A stretch of 64,000 nucleotides of DNA from an uncultured Planctomycetia bacterium (GCA_964433975.1 CAYSSS010000001.1:7989-71988); one strand, 5' to 3'; positions 20,554 to 37,148 are shown, numbered from the stretch's first letter. Notes: a model not told the origin generated them from the letters alone. Numbers and translations: made by a program.

Positions 20554-20572
20554 TTAATATAGAAAAGGGTAT

Positions 20573-23656: not shown

Positions 23657-24704
23657 TTCAAATAATGCCGGAGCGGATATCGCTGTTCTTTTTGACGGAT
23701 TATTAAAGGCGAAATTCAGCGAAAGCGTGGCAAGTGTAGATAAAATTCCAGGAGGCATCAATAGCGAGGCGTATAAGATCTTAACGGGTCAAGGTAATGA
23801 GTATTTCGGGAAGGTTTATCGGATCAGTAAAGGCGACAGCAGAGACAGGTTAGCTACAGAATTTTCGGGGCTTACTTATTTGTGGCAGAATGGCATTAAG
23901 AATATACCGGAACCTTTATTGGCAAGCGAAGAATACGGCTTTGCGATTTATAGATATATAAAAGGATCGAGTATAAAGCCCGGTGAGATAACCGCGGCCG
24001 ATATTGATGAAGCCGCTGAATTCGCAACCCGGATCCATTCGTTAACCCGCGTAGAATCTGCCGATAATCAGCCGGTTGCTTCCGAGGCATGCTTTAGTAT
24101 CCGGGAGTACATAGATTGTGTTAGTGGTCGGATAGATAAATTTAAGAAGGTTATTAAAAAAGATACCATCTCTGCTTCGCTTGGCGCATTTCTGGAAGAT
24201 GAATTCATACCTTTTTTTAGTGGCGTCAGGAAAGCGGCGGAAAGAAAAGCCGAAAAGTCCGGCATTGATATCGATGAAAAGCTTCATAAGAGCAAGCGGA
24301 CGTTAAGCGTATCTGATTTTGGATTCCATAATGCTGTAAGATCGGAGTCCGGCAAACTTTTTTTCTTCGATTTTGAATATTACGGGTGGGATGATCCCGC
24401 GAAGATGATAACTGATTTTTATCTTCAGCCGGCCGTCCCGGTCCCGTCAAGTTACAGAGAGCGCTTTTTTAAAGAAGTGCGAAAAAACTATCGCGAAGGG
24501 AATAGCCTGGATCTCCGGATTTCTATGATTTATCCGATACTGGGATTGAAATGGTGCCTTATAATGTTGAATGTCTTTCTTCGTATTGATGATCATGAGA
24601 GCAGTAAAGATGTACGCTTAGAAAATCTTGCGAAGGCGGTAACCAAGTTTCAAGAGATAAAGAATGAAATTGACATAAAAGCATTCCCCCTTTCTCTTGT
24701 ATGA
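23628..24704 (+). CDS. APH/choline-kinase-fold small-molecule kinase
   Basis: IPGGINSEAYKI nucleotide-loop region, catalytic-loop SDFGFHN (DxxxxN), and FFFDFEYYGWDDP (metal-binding D plus APH-type tail). The start is uncertain: ATG 23628 was chosen, and the ORF is open from 23553, overlapping the HAD gene. Confidence 0.65.
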   Translation: MKSLNTFLVNSNNAGADIAVLFDGLLKAKFSESVASVDKIPGGINSEAYKILTGQGNEYFGKVYRISKGDSRDRLATEFSGLTYLWQNGIKNIPEPLLASEEYGFAIYRYIKGSSIKPGEITAADIDEAAEFATRIHSLTRVESADNQPVASEACFSIREYIDCVSGRIDKFKKVIKKDTISASLGAFLEDEFIPFFSGVRKAAERKAEKSGIDIDEKLHKSKRTLSVSDFGFHNAVRSESGKLFFFDFEYYGWDDPAKMITDFYLQPAVPVPSSYRERFFKEVRKNYREGNSLDLRISMIYPILGLKWCLIMLNVFLRIDDHESSKDVRLENLAKAVTKFQEIKNEIDIKAFPLSLV

Positions 24705-24714
24705 GTAGAATTTT

Positions 24715-25545
24715 ATGGAGATTTTCATGGATTTGCAGAATCTGGATAAAAGGTCAATAGAATTCAGAAGGAAGATCCTCCGTATGATCGATCGCTCCCG
24801 CAGGGGGCACATCGGTTCGGCCTTTTCTATAGTGGAGATCGTGCGGGTTTTGTATGAAGAGGTGCTGCGCGTAGATCCGAAGAGACCCCTATGGGAAGAG
24901 AGAGACCGTTTCATATTGAGCAAAGGGCATGGTTGTCTTGCGCTGTATGTGGCCTTAGCCGAAAAAAAATTCATTAGTAACGCGGAACTTTCAAACTTTT
25001 GCGACTTCGATTCAATCCTCGGAGGTCACCCTCAATACGGGAAGGTTCTCGGGGTGGAGGCCTCTACAGGTTCTTTAGGACATGGACTATCCATCGGTGT
25101 GGGTATTGCCTTAAATGGGAAGATCGATAAGAGAGATTACAGGACTTTTGTTCTGCTTGGCGACGGTGAATGTAATGAGGGTTCGGTCTGGGAAGCTGCC
25201 ATGTGCGCCTCAAAACACAAACTTGATCGTTTGACAGCATTGATCGATTATAACAAGATGCAATGCTACGGCGCGACTTGCGAAGTGCAAAATCTCGAGC
25301 CTTTTGCCGACAAATGGCGCAGCTTTGGTTTTAGCGTGAAAGAGGTGGATGGGCACGACATGGCGGCGTTACACAATATTCTGAAGAATATCCCGTTCGA
25401 TACGGAAAAGCCGCAAGTCGTTATTTGTCATACTACTAAAGGCAGAGGGATACGCTCACTGGAAGGGCATGCGCCATCGCATCACAAGAGTAAGATAAGT
25501 GATGATGAGATCGAATTGTTCCTTAAGGAGCTGGAGAAAAATTAG
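24715..25545 (+). CDS. Transketolase, N-terminal (ThDP-binding) subunit
   Basis: RGHIGSAFS, FILSKGHGCLALY, TGSLGHGLS, and LGDGECNEGSVWEA...YNK (GDG...N ThDP motif). 276 aa, typical of a split transketolase. Confidence 0.85.
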   Translation: MEIFMDLQNLDKRSIEFRRKILRMIDRSRRGHIGSAFSIVEIVRVLYEEVLRVDPKRPLWEERDRFILSKGHGCLALYVALAEKKFISNAELSNFCDFDSILGGHPQYGKVLGVEASTGSLGHGLSIGVGIALNGKIDKRDYRTFVLLGDGECNEGSVWEAAMCASKHKLDRLTALIDYNKMQCYGATCEVQNLEPFADKWRSFGFSVKEVDGHDMAALHNILKNIPFDTEKPQVVICHTTKGRGIRSLEGHAPSHHKSKISDDEIELFLKELEKN

Positions 25546-26472
25546 ATGAGGAAAGCCTGCTTAAACGCAGTATATGAACTTGCCAGGCAAGATAAGAGGG
25601 TTCTATTTTTTGGATCTGATATAGCGGCCGGCACATTGGCGCAATTTCAGAAAGAGATGCCGGATAGGTATTTTATGGAAGGTGTTTCTGAAGCCAATAT
25701 CATAGGAGTGATGTCAGGCCTTGCCATGAACGGCAAAATACCGTATCTAAATACCATAGCCGTCTTTTCGACGCGCAGGTGTTATGAGCAGATCCTGCTT
25801 GACGCGGCGATGCATAATCTGAAGATTCGGATAATCGGTTCAGGCGGCGGGCTTGTATACGCGCCGCTGGGGCCCACACATCTTGCTTTTGAGGACATGT
25901 CTCTCATGAGAATCATACCTAATATGACTATAGTCGCTCCCTGCGATGCGGAAGAGATGAAACGGCTTATGCCCCGGACGCTTGATCATGAAGGGCCGAT
26001 GTATATCCGGCTTGGCAAGGGAGGGGACCCAATCGTGAGTTCTCCGGATAAGGATTTTAAGATTGGTAAAGCAATACTTATGCGTAAGGGCCGTGATGCG
26101 CTTGTTGTTAGTACGGGAGTAACGCTCAAATTGGTTTTGGATGCGGCGGAAGAATTGAAAACCAGAGGAGTGGAATTAAAAGTTCTTCACATGCATACGG
26201 TTAAGCCTATAGACCGCGCAGCCATTATGGAAGCAGCGTTTGGAGTAAAAACTATTATTACGGTGGAAGAGCATTCCGTTATCGGTGGACTCGGAAGCGC
26301 TGTGGCAGAGATCGTGGCAGAAGCCGGATTTTCGCCGGCCAAGAAATTCTTAAGGATCGGGCTTCCCGATCTATTTCCCGACAAATATGGTTCTCAAGAA
26401 AAATTAATGAATTTTTATGGTTTAACTAAAGAAAAAATAGTATCTGCTTTGTCAGGGTTCTTAAATACATAA
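25546..26472 (+). CDS. Transketolase, C-terminal (pyrimidine-binding plus C-terminal domain) subunit
   Basis: FFGSDI...FMEGVSEANIIGVMSGLA, GGLVYAPLGPTHLAFEDMSLMR, and TVEEHSVIGGLGSAV. It starts 1 nt after the N-subunit stop. Confidence 0.85.
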   Translation: MRKACLNAVYELARQDKRVLFFGSDIAAGTLAQFQKEMPDRYFMEGVSEANIIGVMSGLAMNGKIPYLNTIAVFSTRRCYEQILLDAAMHNLKIRIIGSGGGLVYAPLGPTHLAFEDMSLMRIIPNMTIVAPCDAEEMKRLMPRTLDHEGPMYIRLGKGGDPIVSSPDKDFKIGKAILMRKGRDALVVSTGVTLKLVLDAAEELKTRGVELKVLHMHTVKPIDRAAIMEAAFGVKTIITVEEHSVIGGLGSAVAEIVAEAGFSPAKKFLRIGLPDLFPDKYGSQEKLMNFYGLTKEKIVSALSGFLNT

Positions 26473-26488: not shown

Positions 26489-27151
26489 ATGGCGAATATA
26501 GATTTTTTAAGCGTAATACACAAAAGTACGAAGCGCGATTATCTGGGCAGAGTAAACGAATATCCGAAAGCGGAGGCCATCAAGAAGGCGAAGCTGTACG
26601 ATCATGATTATTGGGACGGAGATCGTAAATTCGGATATGGCGGATACAGATATGACGGAAGATGGCGTAAGGTGGCCGACTCAATAGCTGCTCATTATAA
26701 TCTGAAGGCGGGCGATCGCATTCTCGATGTCGGAAGCGGCAAAGGATTCCTTTTGTACGATCTTACGCAAGCCGTGCCCGGCATAGAGGTGAAAGGTATT
26801 GATATTTCTAAATACGCGATTCAAAATTCTAAAGAGGAAGTCCGTTCTTTTCTAGACGAAGGGAACGCTATATCTTTGCCATACAGAGATAAAAGCTTCG
26901 ATCTGGTCATATCTATAAACGCGCTTCATAATTTGTACTGTTATGATGTGGTCAAAGCGCTGAAGGAGATAGAGAGGGTCGGTAAAAAGAATAAATATGT
27001 TGTCGTTGAATCATACAGAAATGAAGAAGAGAAGGTTAACCTTATGTATTGGGTGCTGACAGGCGAATGTTTCTTTTCGCCAGACGAATGGAAGTGGCTA
27101 TATGATCTTGCGGGTTATAAAGGTGACCATTCATTTATATATTTTGAATAG
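26489..27151 (+). CDS. Class I SAM-dependent methyltransferase
   Basis: Motif I RILDVGSGKGFLLYDL and post-I GIDIS. The N-terminal DHDYWDGDRKFGYGGYRYDGRW segment is typical of a glycan-locus MTase family. Confidence 0.75.
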   Translation: MANIDFLSVIHKSTKRDYLGRVNEYPKAEAIKKAKLYDHDYWDGDRKFGYGGYRYDGRWRKVADSIAAHYNLKAGDRILDVGSGKGFLLYDLTQAVPGIEVKGIDISKYAIQNSKEEVRSFLDEGNAISLPYRDKSFDLVISINALHNLYCYDVVKALKEIERVGKKNKYVVVESYRNEEEKVNLMYWVLTGECFFSPDEWKWLYDLAGYKGDHSFIYFE

Positions 27152-27162: not shown

Positions 27163-28191
27163 ATGAAAGCGGCAATTTTAGTTGAGCAAAAAAAAGCACT
27201 CGTAATAGCTGATATTAATTTGCCATCAGAGCTTCAATACGGGCAAGTTTTGGTCAAGATTGTATGCAGCGGCGTGTGCGGTTCGCAAATAGGTGAGATA
27301 AACGGGATTAAGGGGCCGGATAAATTTCTGCCGCATTTACTTGGGCATGAAGGTGGAGGTGTAGTTTCCGACATAGGGCCTGGCGTTACTAAAGTTAAAA
27401 AAGACGATCACGTCGTTCTTCATTGGCGTAAGAGTACCGGCATTGAATCACCCGTACCAAAATATAAGTGGGGCAGCAAAATAGTGAATGCGGGATGGGT
27501 TACTACTTTTAACGAATATGCGGTGGTGTCGGAAAATAGGATCACTGCTATAGATAAGGATATTGATTTTGAAATAGCCGCATTAATGGGATGCGCAGTG
27601 ACAACGGGATTGGGCGTTATAACCAACGATGTTAAGCTTAGGACGGGCGAATCGATCGCTATATTTGGTTCCGGCGGCATAGGCCTGAATATGATCCAGG
27701 GCGCTTCGCTCGTTTCGGCAGATCCTATAATAGCGGTCGATATTTATGATCACAAACTTAAATTAGCAAAAGAATTCGGAGCCACTCATATTATAAATTC
27801 GTCAAAAACAGATGCTAAGAAAGAGATCTGTAATATTGTAGGCAGGTGCGGGGTAGACGCGGCGGTTGATAACACAGGTAATGTCAATGTGATAAATCAG
27901 GCCTATGAGGTAACGTCGGATACTGGCAGGACTGTTTTAGTCGGCGTTCCGCAAATCGGAGAGAAGATCAGTATTTACTCGCTTCCGTTACATTTTGAAA
28001 AGAAAATCTATGGCTCGCACGGTGGCGGAGCAAGCCCGTCCTTCGATATTCCGAGATATTTGAACCTTTATAAAAAAGGCGCATTGAAATTAAAAGGTAT
28101 GATAACGGATTCTTTCCGCTTAGATGAGATCAATAACGCTATAGCGGGAATAAGGAAGGGTAGTATCATAAAGTGTATAATAAAGATGTGA
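27163..28191 (+). CDS. Zinc-dependent medium-chain alcohol/polyol dehydrogenase
   Basis: CSGVCGSQ and GHEGGGVV (catalytic Zn ligands), and GSGGIGLNMIQ (NAD-binding GxGxxG). 342 aa. Confidence 0.8.
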   Translation: MKAAILVEQKKALVIADINLPSELQYGQVLVKIVCSGVCGSQIGEINGIKGPDKFLPHLLGHEGGGVVSDIGPGVTKVKKDDHVVLHWRKSTGIESPVPKYKWGSKIVNAGWVTTFNEYAVVSENRITAIDKDIDFEIAALMGCAVTTGLGVITNDVKLRTGESIAIFGSGGIGLNMIQGASLVSADPIIAVDIYDHKLKLAKEFGATHIINSSKTDAKKEICNIVGRCGVDAAVDNTGNVNVINQAYEVTSDTGRTVLVGVPQIGEKISIYSLPLHFEKKIYGSHGGGASPSFDIPRYLNLYKKGALKLKGMITDSFRLDEINNAIAGIRKGSIIKCIIKM

Positions 28192-28193
28192 AG

Positions 28194-29816
28194 ATGGGCA
28201 ATAAACCGTCACTGTTACTTATGACTTCGCGCTCTGCCGGTGGATTTAATATAGCGCCGCCGCTGGGTCTATATAGACTGAAAAACTTCATACAACAGGA
28301 TGTGTCGACCTGCGATATCCTGGATTTCGATCTGGAAAATGAAAATGAATATCTCGGTAAGGCAGAACAGGGAAAGTATGATATTATCGGCATGAGCGTA
28401 TCGCATATTAACATGGTAATGGATTTGGAAACGCTGGTGAGGTTTCGACATGCCGCACAGGTCAGTGGAAAACGAGTTTTATTTATTGCAGGAGGCCAAG
28501 AAGCAGCCCTCAATTATACCCAATGGCTTCAAAGCAATCTTGTCGATGTGATTTTTTTGGGTTTCGCAGAGCGCTCTCTTCAAAAATTTTGCTCTAATTT
28601 GGGCAGGATCGGGAAAGAGGCGCCGCTAAAAGATATAGCGAAAGACATTAAAGGTTTGTCATTTTGCGCAGAAACGGGCGAGGTATTGCATATACCATCC
28701 AATGTATTAACTGAAGAAGAATTTGAATTATTGTCTTTTGATAATGTCATGACAATGGATATTCCATATGAAATTTACTGGAATAAAATGCGTTTGGAAC
28801 GGGCAAGGATCAATACTAACACCGAATTTGTTTTTAAGACAGCTCGGCTTTACACCAGTAGTCACTGTCCAAGAAGATGCGGCTTTTGCAGTTCCCAATC
28901 CTTTATTACGTCTTCTCAAAAGAATGTCTCTCCCATATTTTCAATAACCGCTGAGCAAATTTATGAAATTGTTAAGCACTATGCCCGACGTTATGAAGCA
29001 GAAGGATTTCTTTTTAGCGACGACGATTTTCCCATAGGAACTCTTGATGGAATAGAGAGGGTTAGACGTTTTTGTAGACTAATTATTGACGCCAAACACA
29101 CAGGCAATCTTCCAGACAAGCTTAAATTTTTTTGCCAATCACGAGTTGCAGATTTTCTCGATAATAAAACAGTGAGGCATGATCTTATCAAGCTTATGAG
29201 AGAGGCGGGATTCGATAACACCGGTTTGGGCATCGAAACATTATCTAACCGCCTTCTAAAAGCTCCGTCTGTCAATAAAACAGGAGTTACCGTTTCTGAC
29301 TGCAAGGCAGTTATTGACGCACTTCTGGAAGAAGGAGTTATTCCCATAATCTTCATTATCATAGGCATACCGGAAAGTTCTGTTGGCGAGCTAGAGGAAA
29401 CCATATGTGAAGTCGCAGATTATATAAGAAAAGGTGTGGATGTTGCTGTTACAGCTAGGCTCAGAGTTAACCCAGGCTCTCCGCTCTGTGAATGTGGTAG
29501 TTATCCGATAAGTTCCACCGCATGGGTTAGTCCAGTCAATGGTAAAACCCTATTGGTAGCCGATTACTTTATTCCATGGAATCCAATAATCGAAATGATT
29601 ATTGGCAAAGTTCAGGAAAAAGCCGAAGAAGAAGTGCGGCTCCTCTGCGCCAAATATGGGTGGAATAAAAGCATGGCTCCTAAGACTATCGTAGGAATCG
29701 CGACACTTATTGCTACCGCAAGACTTATCAATAGAGAAGATATTGTCGAAAAATTCATTGTTTTACTGCGCGATATAGTTGATAATCAATCAAGCTTATT
29801 GAGAGAAAACAGATAG
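28194..29816 (+). CDS. Cobalamin-binding-like-domain (class B-like) radical SAM enzyme
   Basis: N-terminal Rossmann-like domain (LLLMTSRS...IIGMSVSH...LFIAGGQEA), then SHCPRRCGFC. 540 aa from ATG 28194, which lies 2 nt after the ADH stop. Confidence 0.7.
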   Translation: MGNKPSLLLMTSRSAGGFNIAPPLGLYRLKNFIQQDVSTCDILDFDLENENEYLGKAEQGKYDIIGMSVSHINMVMDLETLVRFRHAAQVSGKRVLFIAGGQEAALNYTQWLQSNLVDVIFLGFAERSLQKFCSNLGRIGKEAPLKDIAKDIKGLSFCAETGEVLHIPSNVLTEEEFELLSFDNVMTMDIPYEIYWNKMRLERARINTNTEFVFKTARLYTSSHCPRRCGFCSSQSFITSSQKNVSPIFSITAEQIYEIVKHYARRYEAEGFLFSDDDFPIGTLDGIERVRRFCRLIIDAKHTGNLPDKLKFFCQSRVADFLDNKTVRHDLIKLMREAGFDNTGLGIETLSNRLLKAPSVNKTGVTVSDCKAVIDALLEEGVIPIIFIIIGIPESSVGELEETICEVADYIRKGVDVAVTARLRVNPGSPLCECGSYPISSTAWVSPVNGKTLLVADYFIPWNPIIEMIIGKVQEKAEEEVRLLCAKYGWNKSMAPKTIVGIATLIATARLINREDIVEKFIVLLRDIVDNQSSLLRENR

Positions 29817-29826
29817 GAAAATAATC

Positions 29827-31044
29827 GTGCTAACAGGACAGAAATGCAAGCTTGCCCTTCACGGCGGCGCCCGAGTCCGCAAGAGGCCCATGCCTCCGCG
29901 CTTGGCTTTTGGCCCCGCCGAGCTCAGCGCCATTAATGCGTTGTTTAATCATTACAGGAGCAAGAAAGCGGATTTTGGGTATCAGGGGGAATACGAGCGG
30001 TTATATAACGAAGCCTTTGTACGCTACATGGGCGTGAAAGGTTTTAGCGACGCCGTTAATAGCGGTACATCCGCTTTATATGTAGCCATAGCCGCCCTGA
30101 ACCTGGCGCCTCGTAGCCATGTTATAGTTTCGCCGGTTACGGATCCGGGCACCATAAACGCTATTATCCTGAACCGGCTTATCCCGGTCATAGCGGACTC
30201 TAGCCCCCAATCTTACAATATCGGAGTCGAAGAATTTAAGGCAAGAATTTCGAAAAAAGTAAAAGGGGCTGTTATAGTTCATATCGGAGGAAAACCAGCT
30301 CCAATAGATAAAATCTGTAATACAGCCAGAAAGAATGGAATACGTGTGGTCGAAGATTGTTCTCAATCGCATGGCGCAAAATTGAATGGCGAGAAAGTCG
30401 GCACCTTTGGCGATATAGCTGCTTTTTCCACGATGTATAGAAAAGCTCACGCAACCGGCGGGTGTGGCGGAGTTATATTTACCCGAAATAAGGAATATTA
30501 CAACATGATAAGGGCCTACGCGGATAGAGGAAAACCTTTTTTCAAGCCCGGTTTTACCGAAAAGGATCCGTCATCATTTTTGTTTCCCGCCCTCAATTTG
30601 AATATCGATGAGATATCCTGTGCCATTGGCATCAAGACCCTGGAGAAGCTCGACATCGTAATAAGAAAAAGGATCGAATTTTTAACGAAACTCGGAAGTC
30701 ATATATCCAAAAATTCAAAAGTTTGCAGGTTGGCGCAAGTATCAGTAAACGATTCGCCGTTTTTTCAGCCGATAATTATCGACACTTTAAAGATCGGTTG
30801 CTCAAAAGAGGAGTTTGCTAACGCAGTTAGGGCGGAAGGAATAGATATTAATCCCGATTATAAATATGTTATCAGCGAATGGAAATGGGTCAAGCCATAT
30901 TTAGCCGATGATTATATGAGTGAGAACGCAATCAATTTTAGAAAGAGTTCATTTAACCTCCTTTTTAATGAAAACTACAAAGAGAGAGAGTTGGGGGATG
31001 TTATTAGCGCTATTTTAAAGGTTGAAGAATCATATGCTTTATAA
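29827..31044 (+). CDS. DegT/DnrJ/EryC1/StrS-family PLP aminotransferase (StsC/BtrS-like N-terminus)
   Basis: N-terminal LALHGGARVR, NSGTSALYVAI, EDCSQSHGA, and FSTMYRKAHATGGCGG (Schiff-base Lys region). GTG start preceded by AGGAAA. Confidence 0.75.
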   Translation: MLTGQKCKLALHGGARVRKRPMPPRLAFGPAELSAINALFNHYRSKKADFGYQGEYERLYNEAFVRYMGVKGFSDAVNSGTSALYVAIAALNLAPRSHVIVSPVTDPGTINAIILNRLIPVIADSSPQSYNIGVEEFKARISKKVKGAVIVHIGGKPAPIDKICNTARKNGIRVVEDCSQSHGAKLNGEKVGTFGDIAAFSTMYRKAHATGGCGGVIFTRNKEYYNMIRAYADRGKPFFKPGFTEKDPSSFLFPALNLNIDEISCAIGIKTLEKLDIVIRKRIEFLTKLGSHISKNSKVCRLAQVSVNDSPFFQPIIIDTLKIGCSKEEFANAVRAEGIDINPDYKYVISEWKWVKPYLADDYMSENAINFRKSSFNLLFNENYKERELGDVISAILKVEESYAL

Positions 31045-31062
31045 ATAGGAGATATGTAACCC

Positions 31063-31776
31063 ATGAAAAAATGTTTTAGCAACGCTTCATCCGTTCGCGC
31101 AAAAAGTATTTACAAGAACATCAAGATTGAAAAGCACGTGAAGGGGTTTATGCTCGGCGAATTCAATTCTTATCATTTGATATCCGATCCTAAACGTGTC
31201 GGTTTTCTTTTTGCCAGGTATAAATTTGTGGCAAAGATGCTGGAGGGATATGAACGCGTATTGGAGGTAGGCTGCCAGGAGGGGTTGGGGTCATTACTGG
31301 TCGCAAAGTCCGTCAAGAAGCTTGTTGCGACCGATTTTTATAAGCCACACATAGAGAGTTGCGTAGGAAATACAAGTAGTTTTGCTAAGAATATTGAATT
31401 CAGGTGGCACGATATTATCGGAGGGCCGATTGTAGAACATTTTGCAGGCGCCTATTCCTTGGATGTTTTGGAGCATATAGATCCCAAGCAAGAGGATTTA
31501 TATATGGCCAATGTTGCTTTAAGCCTTGAAGAAAAAGGCGTATTTATAATCGGAACGCCTTCTTTAGAATCTCAAAAGTATGCCTCTTCGGCATCAAAAG
31601 AGGGACATATAAATTGTAAGAGCGGAGAGGGGCTGCGCCTCTTTTGCCAGAACTATTTCTACAATGTTTTTATGTTTGGCATGAATGACGAAGTTATTCA
31701 TACGGGTTTTCTGCCCATGGCGCACTATCTGTTTGCCGTTTGCGTTGACCCAATAAAAGGGAAGATTAATAAATGA
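31063..31776 (+). CDS. Class I SAM-dependent methyltransferase
   Basis: Motif I VLEVGCQEGLGS, post-I ATDF, and LDVLEHI. 237 aa. Confidence 0.7.
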   Translation: MKKCFSNASSVRAKSIYKNIKIEKHVKGFMLGEFNSYHLISDPKRVGFLFARYKFVAKMLEGYERVLEVGCQEGLGSLLVAKSVKKLVATDFYKPHIESCVGNTSSFAKNIEFRWHDIIGGPIVEHFAGAYSLDVLEHIDPKQEDLYMANVALSLEEKGVFIIGTPSLESQKYASSASKEGHINCKSGEGLRLFCQNYFYNVFMFGMNDEVIHTGFLPMAHYLFAVCVDPIKGKINK

Positions 31777-32585
31777 AGGCCATTGTACCTTCCGATGTTT
31801 ATGAAGGATTTAAAAAATTAGGGATTGCAGGGGAAAGAGTTGTCATCCATTCTTCATTAAGCAGCTTCGGTGAGCTTAAGGGAGGGGCCGAAGCTCTTAC
31901 GGATGTCATTATCAGCTCCTTCAAGACGATTTTAATGCCCGTTTTTTGTTGGGATTCCGTCACGGTTCCGCCACGAGACGATAGGCCCGGGCAAAATGGA
32001 TGCGACTATTCGTTCTATGACGGTTGGGATAAGAAGCCCGTGCCATTTATAGTTGAAAATGCCGGAATAGAACGAAGCATGGGAGTTATCAGCCGCCACT
32101 TTCTTACTAAACCAAATGTCCTGCGAAGCGATCACCCTTGGCATTCATGGGCCGCCTACGGAGACAGGGCAGGGCAGCTGACCGAAGAATGCTCTTGGAA
32201 TGTGACCAATCTGCCCGTTGAGAGGTTGGCAAGTATTGGCGGACATGTTGTCTTGTTGGGAGTGGGATTAAACTCCTGCACAGCTGTTCATGTTGCTGAG
32301 GAAAAGGCCGGGCGGAATCCTTTTATCAGATGGGCGATTGATAGGAGCGGCGAAGTCAGGCGCGTAAGGGCATCGGGCTGCGCAAAGGGATTCAATAATC
32401 TTCTGCCTCTTTATGAAGACATATTCAAAAAGATATACGTGGGAGAGTGTTGTGTTTTGACAGCTCCCCTGAAGCCTTTTATTGAGCACACAAGATCGAT
32501 TATTCATTCAAATCCGGAAGTCACGCGGTGTTCTGCCAGCTGTATTAGATGCAATGACGCGATACTAGGAGGGCCGGTTGATTAG
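31773..32585 (+). CDS. AAC(3)-family (Antibiotic_NAT fold) N-acetyltransferase homologue
   Basis: VVIHSSLSSFGELKGGAEALTDVII, ILMPVF, GVISRHF, LRSDHPWHSWAAYG, and VVLLGVGLNSCTAVHVAEE, collinear with aminoglycoside 3-N-acetyltransferase motifs. ATGA overlap with the upstream MTase. Confidence 0.7.
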   Translation: MKAIVPSDVYEGFKKLGIAGERVVIHSSLSSFGELKGGAEALTDVIISSFKTILMPVFCWDSVTVPPRDDRPGQNGCDYSFYDGWDKKPVPFIVENAGIERSMGVISRHFLTKPNVLRSDHPWHSWAAYGDRAGQLTEECSWNVTNLPVERLASIGGHVVLLGVGLNSCTAVHVAEEKAGRNPFIRWAIDRSGEVRRVRASGCAKGFNNLLPLYEDIFKKIYVGECCVLTAPLKPFIEHTRSIIHSNPEVTRCSASCIRCNDAILGGPVD

Positions 32586-33747
32586 CCGTGAAGAAATGAG
32601 TTGTAAACTCTGTTCATCCGAAAAGATCGTTGAATTGGGAAAGGTAGGGTCTAAACCCGCATCGGTCACTTCGGATTCAAAACTGTGTGCGGTACAGGCC
32701 AGGGCCTATATTTGCCGGCGTTGCCGTCATATTCAAAAATTTAATCATGATGACGGGGAATCCGCCACGATTAATTCTGTTTATGAAAATTATGCGCCGC
32801 ACTATCTTTCGGGTGGTAACGAACAGCTCTTATTCCCGGAAGATCAACAACCGCGCCCACGGACCTTTCATGTTATTGAAAAGTGTATTAAGTTTTTACC
32901 AAAAACAGGAAAACTTCTGGATATAGGCACTGGTAATGGCGCTGTTTTAAAATCAGCGTCAAGGTTGTTGTCGGAATGGCAATTGCATGCTTTTGATATA
33001 GTGGACTCACATAGAGAAGAGGTGCTTAAGATTCCCCATGTGGAAAGTTTTTTCTGCGGCAAAATAGACGACATAGACCAGGCAAAATATGATTTGATCG
33101 TATTGTGGCATGCCCTGGAGCATATCTCTAGTCCTATGGAAATATTGATGAAGCTGAAAGATAAGATTACGGATGACGGTTACCTATTAGTGCAGGTTCC
33201 AGACGTCCAGCGGAATCCTTTCGATCTCGCCGTAATCGATCATTATTCGCATTTTACTTTTAAAAGACTGGCGGAATTTGTCCGTTCCCTAGGCTTTGTA
33301 ATCGTTGCCGACGGATATGAATGGACCCACAACTGCCTAACTGTATTACTCAAAAAGGACCACCCTACTTCCGAGGTCGCAACGGCATATTCTTGCGACA
33401 CCGAAGATATCAAGTCCGAGAGTTGCTTTTATTGGGTCAATGAAACGCTCGAATATTTTAAATGTGCCATAAATAATTTGGATTATGCTATTTTTGGGAC
33501 CGGCATGGCATCCATTTGGTTGTTATCGCAGCTGCCCAGGCCGCCGCTTTTTTTTATCGATGAGGATAACTTAAAGTCGTCAAATAAGATCGATAATATT
33601 CAGATTATTGGGCCCAAAGATTTACATCGGGGTGAGCTTAATATAATTATGCCATTCATAAAGCCCGTAGCCGCAAATATTAGTGGGAGAATAAAACGGC
33701 TGTATAAAAATTGCGGTTCATATAATTTTGTAATGGCAGAAAATTAG
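32578..33747 (+). CDS. Zn-ribbon class I SAM methyltransferase with C-terminal extra domain (divergent C-methyltransferase-like architecture)
   Basis: CKLCSS...CRRCRH (CxxC...CxxC), LLDIGTGNGAVL (motif I), and LWHALEHI. The C-terminal YAIFGTGMASIWLL...IIGPKDL resembles the TylCIII-type C-terminal domain. The start is TTG 32578 or ATG 32596. Confidence 0.6.
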   Translation: MISREEMSCKLCSSEKIVELGKVGSKPASVTSDSKLCAVQARAYICRRCRHIQKFNHDDGESATINSVYENYAPHYLSGGNEQLLFPEDQQPRPRTFHVIEKCIKFLPKTGKLLDIGTGNGAVLKSASRLLSEWQLHAFDIVDSHREEVLKIPHVESFFCGKIDDIDQAKYDLIVLWHALEHISSPMEILMKLKDKITDDGYLLVQVPDVQRNPFDLAVIDHYSHFTFKRLAEFVRSLGFVIVADGYEWTHNCLTVLLKKDHPTSEVATAYSCDTEDIKSESCFYWVNETLEYFKCAINNLDYAIFGTGMASIWLLSQLPRPPLFFIDEDNLKSSNKIDNIQIIGPKDLHRGELNIIMPFIKPVAANISGRIKRLYKNCGSYNFVMAEN

Positions 33748-33769
33748 CTGGTTTTGAAAGGGATATCTG

Positions 33770-34675
33770 ATGGGCATAGCCCCCGCGATGATCAAACTGC
33801 TTATGAGGGAGGGTAAACAAGAAGTTTTCTCAGGTCATGCCCTGACTATTGGCAGACAAAATATCTCTCCGATGACGATCCGCGACCTGGAAAAGTTGGC
33901 CAAAGAGATTAATTTTAAGTTAAGGCCTTTTCCGGGGAATACGCACTTGGACAATAAGACCGCGAAAAATAGCTTTGTTACCGATAAGGTGCTCTTTCTG
34001 TCCATGGGGTTTAACGGTATAGATAGTATCGATTATAGCGATTTCGAACAATGCGCTATAACGCATGATTTAAATACAAATGTTCCGGAGAACTTATACA
34101 ATAAGTACGATCTGATATTCGATGGGGGATCTACGGAGCATATATTCAATGTTCCAAAGGCGCTTGAGAACTATAATAAGATGTTAAAAATAGGCGGTAG
34201 GATAATACACGCCTTGCCGTCAAACGGTCTTGTAGATCACGGATTTTATATGTTTTCTCCTACTTTATTTTGGGATTATTATTTGGCAAATAGCTGGGAT
34301 ATAAAAGAAGCATTGTTTATAAGACATCCTAAGGATGCTGACAAAGGTCTATGGGATATATATTGTTATTCACCTCATTGTTTAGATATGCTTTCCTATC
34401 TTGGCCTGGATAAAAGTAAATACGCCATTTATTTTGTTGTTAAAAAAACAGATAAGTCGACTTTTAACGCTCCCGTTCAACAGGGATTCTATCTGGAAGC
34501 ATGGAATGGCATATCAAATACAAAGAATGTCAAATTTAAAACATTATATTCCGGAAGGAAAAAAATAGCGAATCTGCTGCCAGAAAGATTAAAAGTTATT
34601 CTGCGGCCCTTGTATCTATCTATTCTTTCAAGGATTCCCATAAGATTTTTTTTAAAAACAGTTGGCAAGTATTAA
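33770..34675 (+). CDS. Methyltransferase-like protein with degenerate SAM motif I
   Basis: DLIFDGGSTEHIFNVPKALENYNKMLKIGGRIIHALP resembles motifs II and III of class I MTases. The motif I position reads HALTIGRQN instead of GxGxG. Confidence 0.4.
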   Translation: MGIAPAMIKLLMREGKQEVFSGHALTIGRQNISPMTIRDLEKLAKEINFKLRPFPGNTHLDNKTAKNSFVTDKVLFLSMGFNGIDSIDYSDFEQCAITHDLNTNVPENLYNKYDLIFDGGSTEHIFNVPKALENYNKMLKIGGRIIHALPSNGLVDHGFYMFSPTLFWDYYLANSWDIKEALFIRHPKDADKGLWDIYCYSPHCLDMLSYLGLDKSKYAIYFVVKKTDKSTFNAPVQQGFYLEAWNGISNTKNVKFKTLYSGRKKIANLLPERLKVILRPLYLSILSRIPIRFFLKTVGKY

Positions 34676-34689: not shown

Positions 34690-36105
34690 ATGAAAGCCGT
34701 TGTGAATAGTAATATAAAGATGCTACCTTCATTTAAAGAGATATCCTGTGCGCTGCTTCACAAGGTCGGGATCGATCGTGCGGTTTTTTTGGGGATACTA
34801 ACTAGATTATGGAGCATAGTTGCGGCGCCGTTTACGATATTGCTCATTGCTTATAAATTCTCCCCTCAGCTTCAGGGGTATTATTATACATTTTTCAGTA
34901 TAATTGCTTTCCAATTTTTAATAGAGCTGGGGCTCAGCAACATCATTATGCAGTTTGCAAGCCATGAATGGTCGAGATTGTCGCTCGATAAAACCGGACG
35001 GATTGTTGGTGAAAAAGAGGCTTTGTCGAGGTTACAAAGCTTGGCGCAACTATTTTTTCGTTGGTATTGTATCGGGAGCTTTGTGTTGACCGTAGGGTTA
35101 GGGGTGTGCGGAGTTTTTATTTTTTCGCAAAAAGTGGACACTAATATCAGTTGGATATTTCCATGGTTATCTCTTTGTATTTGTAATGGCGTAGTATTTT
35201 GCCTGATACCGATCTGGTCATTACTGGAAGGCTGTAATCAGATTTCAAAATTATATCTGTACAGATTTATCCAGGGCATATTTTTAAGCGTGTCCCTTTG
35301 GGCGAGTATATTTTTAGGCGCAAAACTATGGGCAGTGGCCATTTGTAATATAGTAACAATTGTCTGTGCAGGGGTATTTCTTTTATTTAAATGCAGGACT
35401 TTTTTAAAGACCTTATTCTTTTCTATCCCGGCCGACTCTTGTATTAATTGGCGGCAGGATATTTTACCGCTTCAATGGCGTACAACAATAACGTATCTAG
35501 TAGGCTCTTTTGCTTTTACGCTGTTCGTCCCAATTTTGTTTGCATATCATGGTTCTATAATTGCGGGCCAGATGGGTATGACGCTGAGCCTTATATGCGT
35601 AGTGTCGGCGATGCCATCCGCATGGCTTAATCCAAAAGTTCCTCAGTTTGGTATGTTAATCGCCAAGAAGAAATATAAAGAACTTGATGCACTTTTTTGG
35701 CGCACCACAAAGATTTTTGTTAGTATTTCTATTTTAGGAGCCGTCATGGCATGGCTTATTATCTATATCCTGAATGAGATAGGGCATCCTCTTGCGGGCC
35801 GCTTCCTGCCTCTATTGCCGACAGGGATCCTTTTATTGTCCTTGTTTATCTCGGTTATATCGGTACCATTCTCAACGTATTTGCGCATACATAAAAAAGA
35901 GCCGCTTTTATTTATATCGGTTCTAGCCGGCATTTTTACTGGATTATCTTCCTTTATTTTAGGTAAGCGTTATTCGGCCATGGGGATAGCGATAGGTTAT
36001 TTGTTAGTCAACATGATTTTAGTTCCCATCGCTTTTATCATCTGGTATCGCTGCAGAATAGAATGGCATGAAGATGAATGTGCTGAAGCAAAGGATGCAA
36101 ACTGA
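34690..36105 (+). CDS. Polytopic membrane protein, Wzx/MOP-type polysaccharide flippase-like
   Basis: 471 aa with about 12 hydrophobic segments. The SPQLQGYYYTFFSIIAFQFLIELGLSNIIMQFASHE segment is typical of MOP-family glycan-locus transporters. It sits next to GT2 and Wzy-like genes. Confidence 0.6.
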   Translation: MKAVVNSNIKMLPSFKEISCALLHKVGIDRAVFLGILTRLWSIVAAPFTILLIAYKFSPQLQGYYYTFFSIIAFQFLIELGLSNIIMQFASHEWSRLSLDKTGRIVGEKEALSRLQSLAQLFFRWYCIGSFVLTVGLGVCGVFIFSQKVDTNISWIFPWLSLCICNGVVFCLIPIWSLLEGCNQISKLYLYRFIQGIFLSVSLWASIFLGAKLWAVAICNIVTIVCAGVFLLFKCRTFLKTLFFSIPADSCINWRQDILPLQWRTTITYLVGSFAFTLFVPILFAYHGSIIAGQMGMTLSLICVVSAMPSAWLNPKVPQFGMLIAKKKYKELDALFWRTTKIFVSISILGAVMAWLIIYILNEIGHPLAGRFLPLLPTGILLLSLFISVISVPFSTYLRIHKKEPLLFISVLAGIFTGLSSFILGKRYSAMGIAIGYLLVNMILVPIAFIIWYRCRIEWHEDECAEAKDAN

Positions 36106-36106
36106 T

Positions 36107-37111
36107 ATGAAGCCGCCAAAACTATCTGTCATAATGCCAAATTATAACCATGCTAAATACATAGCGGAGGCTTTGGAGGCTGTTGTTACCCAGTCATTTG
36201 AGCCCTTTGAAGTTATTGTCTGTGATGATGGATCGACGGATAATAGCGTTGAAATTATCCAGCGATTTGTTGACAAATACCACTTTGTTCGCTTAATAAG
36301 GAATGAAACCAATCTCGGCGCAAATAAAACATCTAATAAACTGTTCACTTTAATTTCCGGAGATTACGTGTATGGCGCCGCCGCTGATGATAAGGTCTTA
36401 CCGGGATTTTTCGAAAAATCAATGAACTTATTACAAAAATATCCTCAGGCAGGACTTTGCTCCACATTAGCCAGGCTTATCGATGAAAACGGTAACCATA
36501 AAGACGTTCGTTTAGGAATAACTCTTACTATAAACGATAGTTTTATTGAGAGCAACAGAGCAAAAATCGCATTATATAAATACGGAAGTTGGATCGGAGG
36601 CGGCACGACAATTTTTAAACGCAGCGCCTTGATTGAAAATGGCGGATTTATTGAGAAATTACATTCTTATAGTGATAGTTTTATAGAGCAGGTAATAGCT
36701 GTTAAGTATGGAGTTTGTTTTGTTCCCGAAGCGCTGATGTGCTGGAGAGTTCTGTATGACGGTTATGGCATGGCGACCAGGAGAAACTTTGATGTCAGGA
36801 TGGAAACTATAAAGAATGTAACTGATCTTATGAAAGGTATATTTCCCGCCGCCTATATTAGCAAGTGGAGAATAAATGAATTGTTCTCTCTTAAGAAGGA
36901 CGAACTTTTATCTTATAGAGAACGCGATTTATCAAATATTGAGAAGAATGATTCCGGGAGTCTTTCAAAAATAATAGATAAGTTCAGGGTGAATATTGTT
37001 TTCGTCTCTCTATTTTTAGGTATTTTGACATACTTTATGCTGAGATACGGCAGATATTTTAATATCGTTACCAAAATATACTATAGATACCAAAAACACA
37101 AAATTGTATAG
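36107..37111 (+). CDS. GT2 glycosyltransferase
   Basis: KLSVIMPNYNHAKYIAEALEAVVTQ, VIVCDDGSTDNS, and AAADD (DxD-like). ATG 36107 lies 1 nt after the flippase stop. Confidence 0.8.
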   Translation: MKPPKLSVIMPNYNHAKYIAEALEAVVTQSFEPFEVIVCDDGSTDNSVEIIQRFVDKYHFVRLIRNETNLGANKTSNKLFTLISGDYVYGAAADDKVLPGFFEKSMNLLQKYPQAGLCSTLARLIDENGNHKDVRLGITLTINDSFIESNRAKIALYKYGSWIGGGTTIFKRSALIENGGFIEKLHSYSDSFIEQVIAVKYGVCFVPEALMCWRVLYDGYGMATRRNFDVRMETIKNVTDLMKGIFPAAYISKWRINELFSLKKDELLSYRERDLSNIEKNDSGSLSKIIDKFRVNIVFVSLFLGILTYFMLRYGRYFNIVTKIYYRYQKHKIV

Positions 37112-37148
37112 TTGCAGATCACCTTAGATTAGAATTCGAGGACTTGTT

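What the first reader, a model, noticed from the sequence alone, without database searches (positions are those of the whole stretch)
27163..34675. Aminoglycoside-toolkit homologues, including an AAC(3)-family acetyltransferase, working inside a cell-surface glycan locus
Seen within about 11 kb:
- An APH-fold kinase (23628).
- A Zn-ADH (27163).
- A class B-like radical SAM enzyme (28194).
- A DegT aminotransferase with an StsC/BtrS-like LALHGG N-terminus (29827).
- A protein collinear with aminoglycoside 3-N-acetyltransferases (31773-32585; HSSLSSFG, LRSDHPWHSWAAYG, LLGVGLNSCTAVHVAEE).
- Three methyltransferase-type genes.

Established: the AAC(3)/Antibiotic_NAT fold is known almost exclusively as a resistance determinant. 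Glycan N-acetylation normally uses GNAT or hexapeptide-repeat enzymes.

Inference: here the fold has a housekeeping role, N-acetylating an amino sugar made by the neighbouring aminotransferase. The gene would therefore be a candidate proto-resistance enzyme.
Basis: partly seen in the sequence, partly recalled or inferred. Interest (0 to 1): 0.6.

Follow-up and report, generated by a model that had tools for sequence, protein, structure and literature searches.

The report
AAC(3)-fold acetyltransferase in a surface-glycan pathway
A relative of aminoglycoside-resistance acetyltransferases is a fixed part of a widespread, uncharacterised bacterial surface-sugar pathway, where it most likely acetylates an amino sugar rather than defending against antibiotics.

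Summary
ORF 31773-32585 is a confident Antibiotic_NAT/AAC(3)-fold protein: Pfam 107.9 bits, AlphaFold pLDDT 96, TM 0.7-0.8 to solved members, and an intact TxΦHΦAE His/Glu motif. It sits in a tightly packed operon inside a 64-kb, single-strand glycan locus.

It is not a clinical-type AAC(3). It fails NCBIfam's AAC_3 cut-off (75 vs 270 bits) and is about 32% identical to aac(3)-II. It forms its own clade with an extra insert, four invariant cysteines and a neutral-to-basic charge.

In 17 of 19 independent loci, from at least six phyla by record title, this clade lies just downstream of one orthologous DegT aminotransferase. That aminotransferase belongs to a conserved set: methyltransferase, split transketolase, DegT.

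In sister loci the same position holds a hexapeptide-repeat acetyltransferase or a formyltransferase. This supports a role as the N-acylating enzyme for the aminotransferase product.

"Aminoglycoside toolkit" is a superficial resemblance, because no cyclitol synthase is present. "Proto-resistance" is untested. The sugar made is unknown. The module's transketolase has a remodelled acceptor pocket.

Verdict: a new variant of a known kind, of moderate-to-good interest.

The parts
31773..32585 (+). AAC(3)/Antibiotic_NAT-fold acetyltransferase, 270 aa, 'core clade'. Catalytic T170-x-x-H173-x-A175-E176. Clade-specific NGC insert (residues 75-77), RSDHPWHSW, and four invariant Cys (C203, C253, C257, C260).
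   Evidence: Pfam 107.9 bits. PDB phmmer hits BA2930, FrbF and YokD. AF2 pLDDT 96.4. Foldseek TM 0.69-0.79. Alignment invariants.
29827..31044 (+). DegT-family PLP aminotransferase ('DegT405'), the conserved partner that probably makes the amine substrate.
   Evidence: Pfam 185 bits. Catalytic Lys present. Orthologs at 49-63% identity lie upstream of the AAC(3)-like gene in 17 of 19 loci. At least 586 relatives in metagenomes.
31063..31776 (+). SAM methyltransferase (MT237) between DegT and the acetyltransferase. Its stop overlaps the AAC(3)-like start.
   Evidence: Pfam. Conserved at this position in L003, L006-8, L010, L012, L014, L019 and L056. 4-bp overlap.
32578..33747 (+). SAM methyltransferase (MT389; the start may be 32596). 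It frequently lies immediately downstream of the AAC(3)-like gene.
   Evidence: Pfam. Adjacent ortholog in L003, L010, L013, L014, L016, L017 and L022.
33770..34675 (+). Weak methyltransferase-like protein (MT301).
   Evidence: Pfam, below cut-off.
24715..26472 (+). Split transketolase (N subunit 24715-25545, C subunit 25546-26472). ThDP and donor residues are intact, but the acceptor pocket is remodelled: EcTktA H461G, D469L, R520K.
   Evidence: Pfam and NCBIfam. Residue mapping. Upstream of DegT405 in 25 of 31 metagenome loci.
26489..27151 (+). UbiE/MetW-like methyltransferase (MT220), a constant companion of the transketolase and DegT405.
   Evidence: Pfam. 41-65% orthologs next to the TK in most loci.
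27163..28191 (+). Zn-dependent alcohol dehydrogenase, an accessory member of the module.
   Evidence: Pfam. Orthologs in L010, L011, L107, L120, L128 and L134.
28173..29816 (+). B12-binding radical SAM enzyme #2, a probable C-methyltransferase.
   Evidence: Pfam B12-binding + Radical_SAM.
21518..23029 (+). B12-binding radical SAM enzyme #1.
   Evidence: Pfam.
23048..23656 (+). HAD-superfamily phosphatase, assigned by motif only (DFDNT...FIDD).
   Evidence: Sequence. No Pfam, NCBIfam or PDB hit. Orthologs with APH in L008, L010, L011, L120 and L132.
23628..24704 (+). APH-fold kinase.
   Evidence: Pfam PF01636, 36 bits. No NCBIfam or PDB match.
17409..21511 (+). Sugar-phosphate activation set: GmhA-like SIS isomerase (17409-17999), dTDP-glucose-4,6-dehydratase-like SDR (17974-18999), HldE-like nucleotidyltransferase + PfkB kinase with reversed domain order (19012-20553), and an SDR epimerase/reductase (20573-21511).
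   Evidence: Pfam and NCBIfam, all below equivalog cut-offs. Co-occur with the module in L003, L010, L015, L017, L051, L084, L120 and L128-L132.
34690..38549 (+). Assembly genes: a 12-TM protein without Pfam hit (34690-36105), GT2 with a C-terminal TM segment (36068-37111), and a Wzy_C-like polytopic protein (37149-38549).
   Evidence: Pfam. Hydropathy.

Best explanation
ORF 31773-32585 is most likely an acetyl-CoA-dependent N-acetyltransferase of the Antibiotic_NAT (AAC(3)) fold recruited for glycan biosynthesis.

Proposed chemistry (inferred from the family mechanism):
- His173, polarised by Glu176, deprotonates a sugar amine.
- The amine attacks the acetyl-CoA thioester.
- Thr170 stabilises the tetrahedral intermediate.

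Proposed substrate (inferred from gene context): the amino sugar made by the co-conserved DegT aminotransferase (29827-31044), probably nucleotide-activated.

Proposed upstream steps:
- A non-canonical split transketolase, together with GmhA-like, HldE-like and HAD enzymes, would build and activate a heptose-like sugar.
- A 4,6-dehydratase-like SDR and/or the Zn-ADH would create the keto group.

Proposed downstream steps:
- The acetamido sugar would be O- or C-methylated by the flanking SAM and B12-radical-SAM methyltransferases.
- It would then be transferred by the GT2 and exported or polymerised by the 12-TM and Wzy-like proteins.

What is shown: fold, catalytic motif, operon membership, conserved synteny and slot replacement. 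What is inferred: the substrate, the acyl donor and the order of steps.
For: Fold and catalytic machinery:
- PF02522 scores 107.9 bits.
- The AF2 model has pLDDT 96.4 and pTM 0.92.
- Foldseek gives TM 0.69-0.79 to BA2930, AAC(3)-IVa, FrbF and YokD.
- T170, A171, H173, A175 and E176, plus S28, G33, R118 and H121, are invariant or nearly invariant family-wide. The motif's role is taken from PMC8956665.

Native operon member:
- A 4-bp start/stop overlap and ordinary GC content.

Conserved linkage:
- A DegT405 ortholog lies just upstream in 17 of 19 core-clade loci. By record title these include Cyanobacteria, Myxococcota, Nitrospirota, Verrucomicrobiota, Acidobacteriota and Desulfobacterota.
- A second Antibiotic_NAT lineage is linked to the same DegT/TK/MT module in 17 of 41 metagenome loci.

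Slot replacement:
- L128 and L102 carry a Hexapep acetyltransferase directly after DegT405.
- L120 carries a formyltransferase in an otherwise collinear module.

No competing acyltransferase:
- Core-type loci have no LbH or formyltransferase within about 6 kb of the pair.
- No GNAT is listed in the precomputed Pfam tables of L001, L003, L005 or L051.

Charge:
- The clade's median pI is 8.1, against 5.5 for AAC(3)-II. This fits an anionic nucleotide-sugar better than a polycationic drug.

Glycan setting:
- GT2, Wzy-like and 12-TM genes follow.
- One relative is fused to a GT2 domain (P0189).
Against: - No biochemical data exist for any clade member.
- In the second (alpha-type) lineage the Antibiotic_NAT gene is nearly always paired with an LbH acyltransferase. 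There the LbH could be the N-acetyltransferase, and the AAC(3)-fold enzyme could do something else.
- One sub-branch (L016, L018, L022) has the AAC(3)-like gene with a methyltransferase and GT2 but no DegT in the sequence available upstream: 10 kb in L016, 3.3 kb in L018, and only 187 bp in L022, which is therefore not evaluable.
- 18 of 41 DegT405 loci show no recognisable acyltransferase at all.
- The four invariant cysteines have no counterpart in characterised members. They hint at an extra, unknown property.
- The identity of the sugar, and whether the amine is nucleotide-linked, are unknown.
Confidence: 0.66

Rival explanations
1. The enzyme belongs to the glycan pathway but does not acetylate the DegT405 amine. 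It could acylate a different nucleophile, such as a second amine, a hydroxyl, or the lipid-linked or polymerised glycan. It could also use another acyl-CoA. The Cys4 site might give it an additional role.
For: - Alpha-type loci carry both an LbH and an Antibiotic_NAT gene next to DegT405.
- The L016 branch lacks DegT nearby and keeps only rSAM/SPASM, AAC3, MT and GT2.
- There is a fusion to GT2 (P0189).
- Four invariant Cys with CX3CX2C spacing are absent from clinical AAC(3)-II, and the C-terminal 81 aa match no PDB sequence.
Against: - Core-type loci have no other acyltransferase near DegT405.
- LbH or formyltransferase occupy the same slot where the AAC(3)-like gene is missing.
- The family's amine-activating His/Glu dyad is intact.
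Confidence: 0.2
2. It is an antibiotic-modifying (resistance or detoxification) enzyme that merely resides in, or was inserted into, the glycan locus.
For: - It is a family member with an intact catalytic motif.
- Distant Cys4-type relatives are fused to ANT(2'')-like or NTP_transf_2 domains (P0181, P0162), or sit next to an MFS transporter (L052).
Against: - Synteny with DegT405 is conserved across phyla.
- The gene is translationally coupled to its neighbours.
- It fails the NCBIfam AAC_3 cut-off, 75.5 against 270 bits.
- It is only 31.7% identical to aac(3)-IId/IIe over 69% of its length.
- It forms a separate clade.
- It has a non-acidic pI.
- Its best profile matches are the members without aminoglycoside activity.
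Confidence: 0.06
3. The locus is a secondary-metabolite (aminoglycoside-like) gene cluster, and the acetyltransferase is a tailoring or self-resistance enzyme for a secreted small molecule.
For: The gene set (B12-radical SAM, DegT, Zn-ADH, APH-fold kinase, methyltransferases) superficially parallels gentamicin- and butirosin-type clusters (and my own knowledge of those pathways).
Against: - No cyclitol synthase (DHQ-synthase-like) or inositol-phosphate synthase occurs among the window ORFs of at least 150 aa, all of which were scanned.
- Wzy-like, 12-TM, GT2 and GT4 genes are present, together with WbpB/D/E-like, AsnB-like and RmlC/D genes.
- Relatives sit beside Wzm/Wzt-like ABC transporters.
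- A similar gene quartet lies in a Wzx/Wzy EPS cluster of Actinoplanes (PMC13390465).
Confidence: 0.05

Closest known systems
FrbF (FR-900098 phosphonate biosynthesis, PDB 3SMA)
   Same: - Same Antibiotic_NAT fold and TxΦHΦAE motif.
- It is a biosynthetic enzyme rather than a resistance enzyme, with no aminoglycoside activity.
- From my own knowledge, its substrate is a nucleotide-linked (CMP) amine. That is analogous to a nucleotide-sugar amine.
   Different: - Identity is about 22%.
- There are no phosphonate genes here.
- FrbF was not seen to share the NGC insert or the C-terminal Cys motif: profile alignments stop at about residue 188.
- The context here is glycan assembly.
BA2930 (B. anthracis) and YokD (B. 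subtilis), structural-genomics members of the fold
   Same: They are the best sequence and profile matches (E 6e-30 and 1e-27) and share the catalytic His (the H183A/G mutant entries). They have no aminoglycoside activity.
   Different: Their physiological substrates are unknown. Identity is 22-24%. No evidence of a glycan-locus context was examined for them here.
Clinical AAC(3)-II, -III, -IV, -VI and -X aminoglycoside 3-N-acetyltransferases
   Same: Same fold and catalytic dyad.
   Different: - The window protein fails the NCBIfam equivalog cut-offs.
- It is 31.7% identical to AAC(3)-II over 69% of its length.
- It forms a separate clade.
- Clinical enzymes are acidic (pI 5.5), whereas this clade is neutral to basic.
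- Clinical enzymes are mobile-element borne, whereas this gene is operon-embedded.
LbH and GNAT nucleotide-sugar N-acetyltransferases (e.g. PglD, WbpD, QdtC, WecD) and N-formyltransferases (e.g. the ArnA N-domain)
   Same: They share the inferred job: acylating the amine left by a DegT aminotransferase. LbH or formyltransferase genes occupy the same slot in sister modules L128, L102 and L120. The window itself has a WbpB/WbpD-like LbH fusion at 54247-55830.
   Different: The fold and catalytic mechanism are unrelated. To my knowledge, no characterised sugar N-acetyltransferase has the Antibiotic_NAT fold, and literature searches found none.
Actinoplanes missouriensis wps-2 EPS cluster (AMIS_56700-56730)
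   Same: Same order of methyltransferase, transketolase-N, transketolase-C and DegT, within a Wzx/Wzy cluster (PMC13390465).
   Different: It is described by domains only. Orthology was not checked here. The acyltransferase there is a GNAT domain fused to the initiating transferase, and no Antibiotic_NAT gene is reported.

Membership tests
Antibiotic_NAT / AAC(3) fold (PF02522) | Pfam model above the gathering score | tested here: met
   107.9 bits against a cut-off of 25, covering residues 25-241.
Antibiotic_NAT / AAC(3) fold (PF02522) | TxΦHΦAE motif with the catalytic His/Glu dyad | tested here: met
   T170-A-V-H173-V-A175-E176. T170, H173 and E176 are kept in all 76 aligned family sequences except one T170S, and A175 is nearly invariant. 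The motif definition comes from PMC8956665.
Antibiotic_NAT / AAC(3) fold (PF02522) | Three-dimensional fold | tested here: met
   AF2 pLDDT 96.4. Foldseek probability 1.00 and TM 0.69-0.79 to BA2930, AAC(3)-IVa, FrbF, YokD and AAC(3)-IIIa/VIa/Xa.
Antibiotic_NAT / AAC(3) fold (PF02522) | Acetyl-CoA-dependent N-acetylation | not testable with these tools
   Needs an enzyme assay.
Aminoglycoside-resistance AAC(3) classes (NCBIfam AAC_3 and subclasses) | Score above the curated equivalog cut-off | tested here: not met
   AAC_3: 75.5 against 270. AAC_3_II: 67 against 480. AAC_3_IV: 51 against 420. VIII: 47 against 560. VIa: 28 against 675.
Aminoglycoside-resistance AAC(3) classes (NCBIfam AAC_3 and subclasses) | Groups with clinical classes in a tree | tested here: not met
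   In an NJ tree, the core clade and its Cys4 relatives separate from AAC(3)-IId/IIg and from generic members. The tree is distance-based without bootstrap, and only AAC(3)-II sequences stood in for the clinical classes.
Aminoglycoside-resistance AAC(3) classes (NCBIfam AAC_3 and subclasses) | Acidic protein or cleft suited to polycationic drugs | tested here: inconclusive
   Whole-protein pI is 7.06 and the clade median is 8.1, against 5.5 for AAC(3)-II.
Aminoglycoside-resistance AAC(3) classes (NCBIfam AAC_3 and subclasses) | Confers aminoglycoside resistance | not testable with these tools
   Needs MIC testing.
Aminoglycoside biosynthetic gene cluster | Cyclitol-forming enzyme (2-deoxy-scyllo-inosose synthase or inositol-phosphate synthase) | tested here: not met
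   No such Pfam family occurs among the 59 window ORFs of at least 150 aa, all of which were scanned.
Cell-surface glycan (Wzx/Wzy- or ABC-type) locus | Glycosyltransferases plus polymerase, flippase or exporter genes beside sugar-nucleotide genes | tested here: met
   GT2 genes, Wzy_C-like and 12-TM proteins. RmlC/D, UGDH, WbpB/D/E-like, GT4 and AsnB-like genes. ABC_tran and ABC2_membrane in relatives.
NDP-heptose pathway (GmhA / HldE / GmhB) | Equivalog-level matches to GmhA, HldE and GmhB | tested here: inconclusive
   gmhA scores 128 against 209. The HldE domains score 94 against 181 and 78 against 345, in reversed order. The HAD phosphatase is assigned by motif only. This is a related pathway and may use a different sugar.
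Canonical transketolase | ThDP and donor-site residues (EcTktA H26, H66, H100, D155, N185, H261, E411, H473) | tested here: met
   All are conserved.
Canonical transketolase | Acceptor and phosphate-site residues H461, D469 and R520 | tested here: not met
   H461G, D469L and R520K in the window, in 12 genome loci and in nearly all of 36 metagenome module TKs. The split TK 6YAJ and human TK keep H461 and D469. The role of D469, R520 and S385 in acceptor specificity is taken from PMC5073344.

The most novel reading that the evidence does not exclude
The AAC(3)-fold enzyme may be the N-acylating step of a widespread but undescribed sugar pathway. In this reading, a transketolase with a remodelled acceptor pocket builds a non-canonical ketose phosphate that is chain-extended, deoxy or C2-branched. 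HldE-, GmhA- and HAD-like enzymes activate it. It is then aminated, acetylated and heavily O- and C-methylated, giving a new class of higher-carbon acetamido sugars on bacterial surfaces. This would also establish Antibiotic_NAT as a third fold for sugar N-acetyltransferases. That fold would carry a Cys4 (Zn or Fe-S) site unknown in the family.
Probability: 0.3. Interest if true: 0.8.

Novelty: new variant of a known kind. Interest (0 to 1): 0.58.

Why it matters
Sugar N-acetyltransferases in glycan biosynthesis are, to my knowledge, all of the LbH or GNAT fold. An Antibiotic_NAT enzyme doing this job would add a third fold. It would also give the AAC(3) family a physiological role beyond FrbF, which bears on where aminoglycoside acetyltransferases came from.

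Annotation pipelines currently label these genes "aminoglycoside 3-N-acetyltransferase". That inflates environmental resistome counts, and the clade signature can flag such cases: the NGC insert, RSDHPWHSW, and CX3CX2C plus C203.

The linked quartet of methyltransferase, split transketolase and DegT has at least 586 relatives in metagenomes. With its atypical transketolase, it points to an uncharacterised family of surface sugars.

Tried and rejected
- Literature searches found nothing for AAC(3)-type genes in O-antigen or glycan clusters, or for transketolase in glycosylation islands or O-antigen loci. One search failed on syntax. The FrbF paper is not held.
- The DegT405 search against plasmids found only 31-32% relatives in Rhizobium, so no annotated cultured example came from there.
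- The 202-aa and APH-fold proteins gave no PDB or NCBIfam match.
- Model coordinates are not exposed to scripts. I therefore could not measure Cys-Cys distances or pocket electrostatics.
- The source organism could not be named. Cluster look-up returned no names, and the window's own species is absent from the genome collection.
- ORFs downstream of DegT405 in loci lacking any acyltransferase mostly had no Pfam hit. I could not show further displacement, for example by GNAT.
- I considered the DegT being specifically StsC/BtrS-like and rejected it.
- I considered a phosphonate (FrbF-like) pathway and rejected it: no PEP-mutase-like family appeared in any scan.
- I considered the transketolase being an ordinary pentose-phosphate enzyme supplying sedoheptulose-7-P. 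The conserved H461G, D469L and R520K changes make this unlikely.

Full report
**1. What is there**

The window is a single-strand array of 59 ORFs of at least 150 aa. Almost all of them are sugar-nucleotide, tailoring or glycan-assembly genes.

The calls are:
- APH fold, 23553/23628-24704: PF01636, 36 bits.
- Zn-ADH, 27163-28191.
- B12-binding radical SAM, 28173-29816.
- DegT, 29827-31044: 185 bits.
- Antibiotic_NAT protein, 31773-32585: PF02522, 107.9 bits against a cut-off of 25.
- Four methyltransferase-type genes at 26489, 31063, 32578 and 33770.

The quoted peptide motifs are in the translation, and 'KLALHGG' is at DegT residues 8-14.

Genes are separated by -38 to +37 bp. The acetyltransferase start overlaps the upstream stop by 4 bp. 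Its GC content (0.48) is within the range of its neighbours.

The functional unit is larger than the reported span. Upstream lie:
- a GmhA-like SIS isomerase (17409);
- a 4,6-dehydratase-like SDR (17974);
- an HldE-like protein with reversed domain order (19012);
- an SDR (20573);
- another B12 radical SAM enzyme (21518);
- a HAD phosphatase recognisable only by its DxDxT and DD motifs (23048);
- a split transketolase (24715-26472).

Downstream lie a 12-TM protein, a GT2 and a Wzy-like protein.

**2. The acetyltransferase is a true member of the fold but not a clinical-type AAC(3)**

Sequence matches in the PDB are BA2930 (E 1.4e-19), FrbF and YokD, followed by the clinical AAC(3) enzymes. With a profile of the clade, BA2930, YokD and FrbF score best, at 6e-30 to 2e-26. 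Clinical enzymes score 1e-22 to 1e-13.

An AlphaFold model built on 35 clade sequences is very confident (pLDDT 96.4, pTM 0.92). It superposes on all solved members with TM 0.69-0.79 at 17-24% identity.

The family's catalytic motif TxΦHΦAE (PMC8956665) is T170-A-V-H173-V-A-E176. It is conserved, together with S28, G33, R118 and H121, across 76 aligned family sequences.

Several results separate the protein from resistance enzymes:
- It fails every NCBIfam AAC(3) cut-off; AAC_3 scores 75.5 against 270.
- It is 31.7% identical to plasmid aac(3)-IId/IIe over 69% of its length.
- It forms its own clade in a distance tree.

The clade has clear signatures:
- an insert containing N75-G76-C77;
- the motif RSDHPWHSW;
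- four invariant cysteines, C203 plus C253-x3-C257-x2-C260.

The last 81 residues match no PDB sequence even at E ≤ 10. The clade is neutral to basic (median pI 8.1), whereas AAC(3)-II is acidic (pI 5.5).

**3. Distribution**

A search of 5.8 billion proteins found about 66 close clusters at 44-100% identity. Scores then drop sharply to generic family members.

An exhaustive profile search of 1.84 billion representatives gave 5,234 family hits. Of these, 292 scored E ≤ 1e-30.

Among the top 150 representatives, 131 keep the four cysteines, but only 5 carry the core 'WHSW' signature. The glycan-linked clade is therefore a small branch of a larger Cys4-type group.

That outer group sits in other contexts:
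- next to LacI, DUF6198 and MFS genes;
- on a Streptomyces plasmid;
- fused to ANT(2'')-like or NTP_transf_2 domains;
- in one case fused to a GT2 domain.

**4. Conserved gene context**

I examined 19 independent core-clade loci with enough upstream sequence. In 17 of them, an ortholog of the window's DegT (49-63% identity) lies just upstream.

By record title, the loci come from Microcoleus, Anaeromyxobacter, Nitrospirota, Verrucomicrobiota, Vicinamibacterales, Desulfobacteraceae and others. The DegT is either adjacent to the acetyltransferase or separated only by a methyltransferase and/or a SPASM radical SAM gene.

I then searched from the DegT side. Metagenomes hold at least 586 relatives. 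In the best 80 loci:
- The usual order is MT220, (SDR), TK-N, TK-C, DegT. The transketolase is present in 25 of 31 loci with enough upstream DNA.
- Of 41 loci evaluable downstream, 4 have the core-type acetyltransferase.
- 17 have a second, Cys-less Antibiotic_NAT lineage, usually as a NUDIX, LbH, Antibiotic_NAT trio.
- 2 have only an LbH enzyme.
- 18 have nothing recognisable.

Three modules that are otherwise collinear with the window fill the slot after DegT differently:
- L128 has a Hexapep acetyltransferase.
- L102 has a Hexapep acetyltransferase.
- L120 has a formyltransferase.

Core-type loci have no LbH or formyltransferase within about 6 kb of the pair. No GNAT appears in the precomputed Pfam tables.

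This pattern is non-orthologous displacement. It is the strongest computational support available for the role of N-acylating the DegT product.

**5. Mechanism proposed**

*Shown:* the fold, the catalytic dyad, operon membership, the conserved pairing and the slot replacement.

*Inferred:*
- Acetyl-CoA is the donor.
- His173, polarised by Glu176, deprotonates the sugar amine, with Thr170 stabilising the intermediate. This is the family mechanism.
- The substrate is a nucleotide-activated amino sugar made by DegT405.
- Methylation, GT2 transfer and Wzy-type assembly follow.

The precursor is probably heptose-like. GmhA-like, HldE-like and HAD genes accompany the module in many loci. All of them score below equivalog cut-offs.

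**6. The transketolase is odd**

The enzyme keeps every ThDP-site and donor-site residue. The acceptor site differs from the E. coli enzyme: H461 is Gly, D469 is Leu (with E468 as Pro or Thr), and R520 is Lys.

This holds in the window, in 12 genome loci and in nearly all of 36 metagenome module copies. The canonical split transketolase 6YAJ and the human enzyme keep H461 and D469.

Engineering work shows that D469, R520 and S385 control acceptor specificity (PMC5073344). The enzyme is therefore unlikely to be a plain pentose-phosphate transketolase. There are two candidate roles:
- It may make an unusual ketose phosphate for activation. I slightly prefer this, because R358 and K520 remain and the GmhA/HldE/HAD set is linked.
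- It may extend or branch a sugar, creating the ketone that DegT aminates.

I could not decide between these.

**7. Comparison with what is known**

The closest mechanistic precedent is FrbF. It has the same fold and is a biosynthetic enzyme, and from my own knowledge it acts on a nucleotide-linked amine.

The functional analogues are the LbH and GNAT sugar N-acetyltransferases and the ArnA-type formyltransferases. The window itself contains:
- a WbpB/WbpD-like LbH fusion with a WbpE-like DegT (54247-57843);
- two formyltransferases.

The AAC(3)-fold enzyme is therefore an additional, dedicated acylase.

A methyltransferase, TK-N, TK-C, DegT quartet has been noted, by domains only, in the Actinoplanes missouriensis wps-2 EPS cluster (PMC13390465). 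Its deletion gave no sporangium phenotype.

I found no paper describing an Antibiotic_NAT enzyme in glycan biosynthesis.

**8.

The central inference, a housekeeping N-acetylation of the neighbour's amino sugar, is supported by comparative genomics but remains unproven.

The premise that the fold is almost exclusively a resistance determinant is overstated.

The 'aminoglycoside toolkit' framing does not hold. There is no cyclitol synthase, and the DegT is no closer to BtrR/StsC-type enzymes than to perosamine synthase or KdnA.

'Proto-resistance' is neither supported nor excluded. The clade is remote from clinical enzymes, but ANT-fused relatives exist in the wider Cys4 group.

**9. Caveats**

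- The tree is neighbour-joining without support values, and only AAC(3)-II sequences stood in for the clinical classes.
- MAG taxon labels come from record titles, and some are clearly mis-binned.
- The alpha-type lineage's constant pairing with an LbH enzyme leaves room for a role other than acetylating the DegT amine.
- The L016 branch lacks a nearby DegT.
- The cysteine cluster's function is unknown.

Noticed in passing
window 25546-26472 (with 24715-25545): The split transketolase of the module has a remodelled acceptor pocket: EcTktA H461 to Gly, E468/D469 to Pro/Thr + Leu, and R520 to Lys. ThDP and donor residues are kept. The changes are conserved in about 48 module copies, while the canonical split TK 6YAJ keeps H461, D469 and R520.
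   Followed up: partly
window 32379-32552 (codons C203, C253, C257, C260 of ORF 31773-32585): Four invariant cysteines with CX3CX2C spacing plus a remote Cys. The motif is absent from clinical AAC(3)-II and from the alpha-type lineage, and the C-terminal 81 aa match no PDB sequence. A Zn or Fe-S site is possible.
   Followed up: partly
window 19012-20553: HldE-like bifunctional protein with reversed domain order: nucleotidyltransferase at the N-terminus and PfkB kinase at the C-terminus. Both domains score well below the HldE cut-offs. The same 510-514 aa architecture recurs in L003 and L051 and in many DegT405 loci.
   Followed up: partly
L039 8740-10678; also L074, L083, L085, L118, L130: A second Antibiotic_NAT lineage (27% identical, no Cys motif) forms a recurrent NUDIX, LbH acyltransferase, Antibiotic_NAT trio beside the same DegT/transketolase/MT220 module.
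   Followed up: partly
proteins P0189, P0181, P0162 (from the search of protein representatives): Cys4-type relatives occur as fusions. P0189 is Antibiotic_NAT + GT2 + DUF218 (775 aa). P0181 is Antibiotic_NAT + an ANT(2'')-like Aminoglyc_resit domain. P0162 is Antibiotic_NAT + NTP_transf_2 + DUF4037.
   Followed up: partly
L050 1-10044 (Streptomyces sp. NBC_00597 plasmid): An AAC(3)-family gene sits inside a cluster of YcaO, TfuA, peptidase and GNAT genes that resembles a RiPP (ribosomally synthesised peptide) pathway. This is another non-resistance context for the fold.
   Followed up: no
window 43246-62217: A separate, conventional amino-sugar section: a WbpB/WbpD-like GFO + LbH fusion (54247-55830) with a WbpE-like DegT (56695-57843), two formyltransferases (43246, 61318), three AsnB-like amidotransferases (45759, 51530, 57847), and WbmS-like and other deacetylases.
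   Followed up: partly
window 13324-14844, 21518-23029, 28173-29816, 47703-49244; 4425-5492, 55851-56693, 62251-63303: An unusually high load of radical SAM enzymes in one glycan locus: four B12-binding and three SPASM-type. There are also two TylC3-like C-methyltransferases (6459, 11556). This implies heavy C-methylation or epimerisation.
   Followed up: no
window 7731-9812 and 34690-36105: Two large polytopic membrane proteins (693 aa and 471 aa, the latter with about 12 TM segments) have no Pfam match. They are candidate flippases, polymerases or GT-C enzymes.
   Followed up: no
L016, L018, L022: Contigs labelled Akkermansia muciniphila or Bifidobacterium MAGs carry a compact cassette of rSAM/SPASM, AAC(3)-like, MT389 and GT2. 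No DegT was found in the upstream sequence available (10 kb in L016, 3.3 kb in L018; L022 has only 187 bp upstream and is not evaluable). L016 shows many overlapping ORFs, as a high-GC contig would, so at least that label looks mis-binned; GC itself was not computed.
   Followed up: partly
Actinoplanes missouriensis AMIS_56700-56730 (PMC13390465): A published Wzx/Wzy EPS cluster (wps-2) shows the same order of methyltransferase, TK-N, TK-C and DegT. It could be a cultured, genetically tractable host for studying the module. Orthology was not verified.
   Followed up: no
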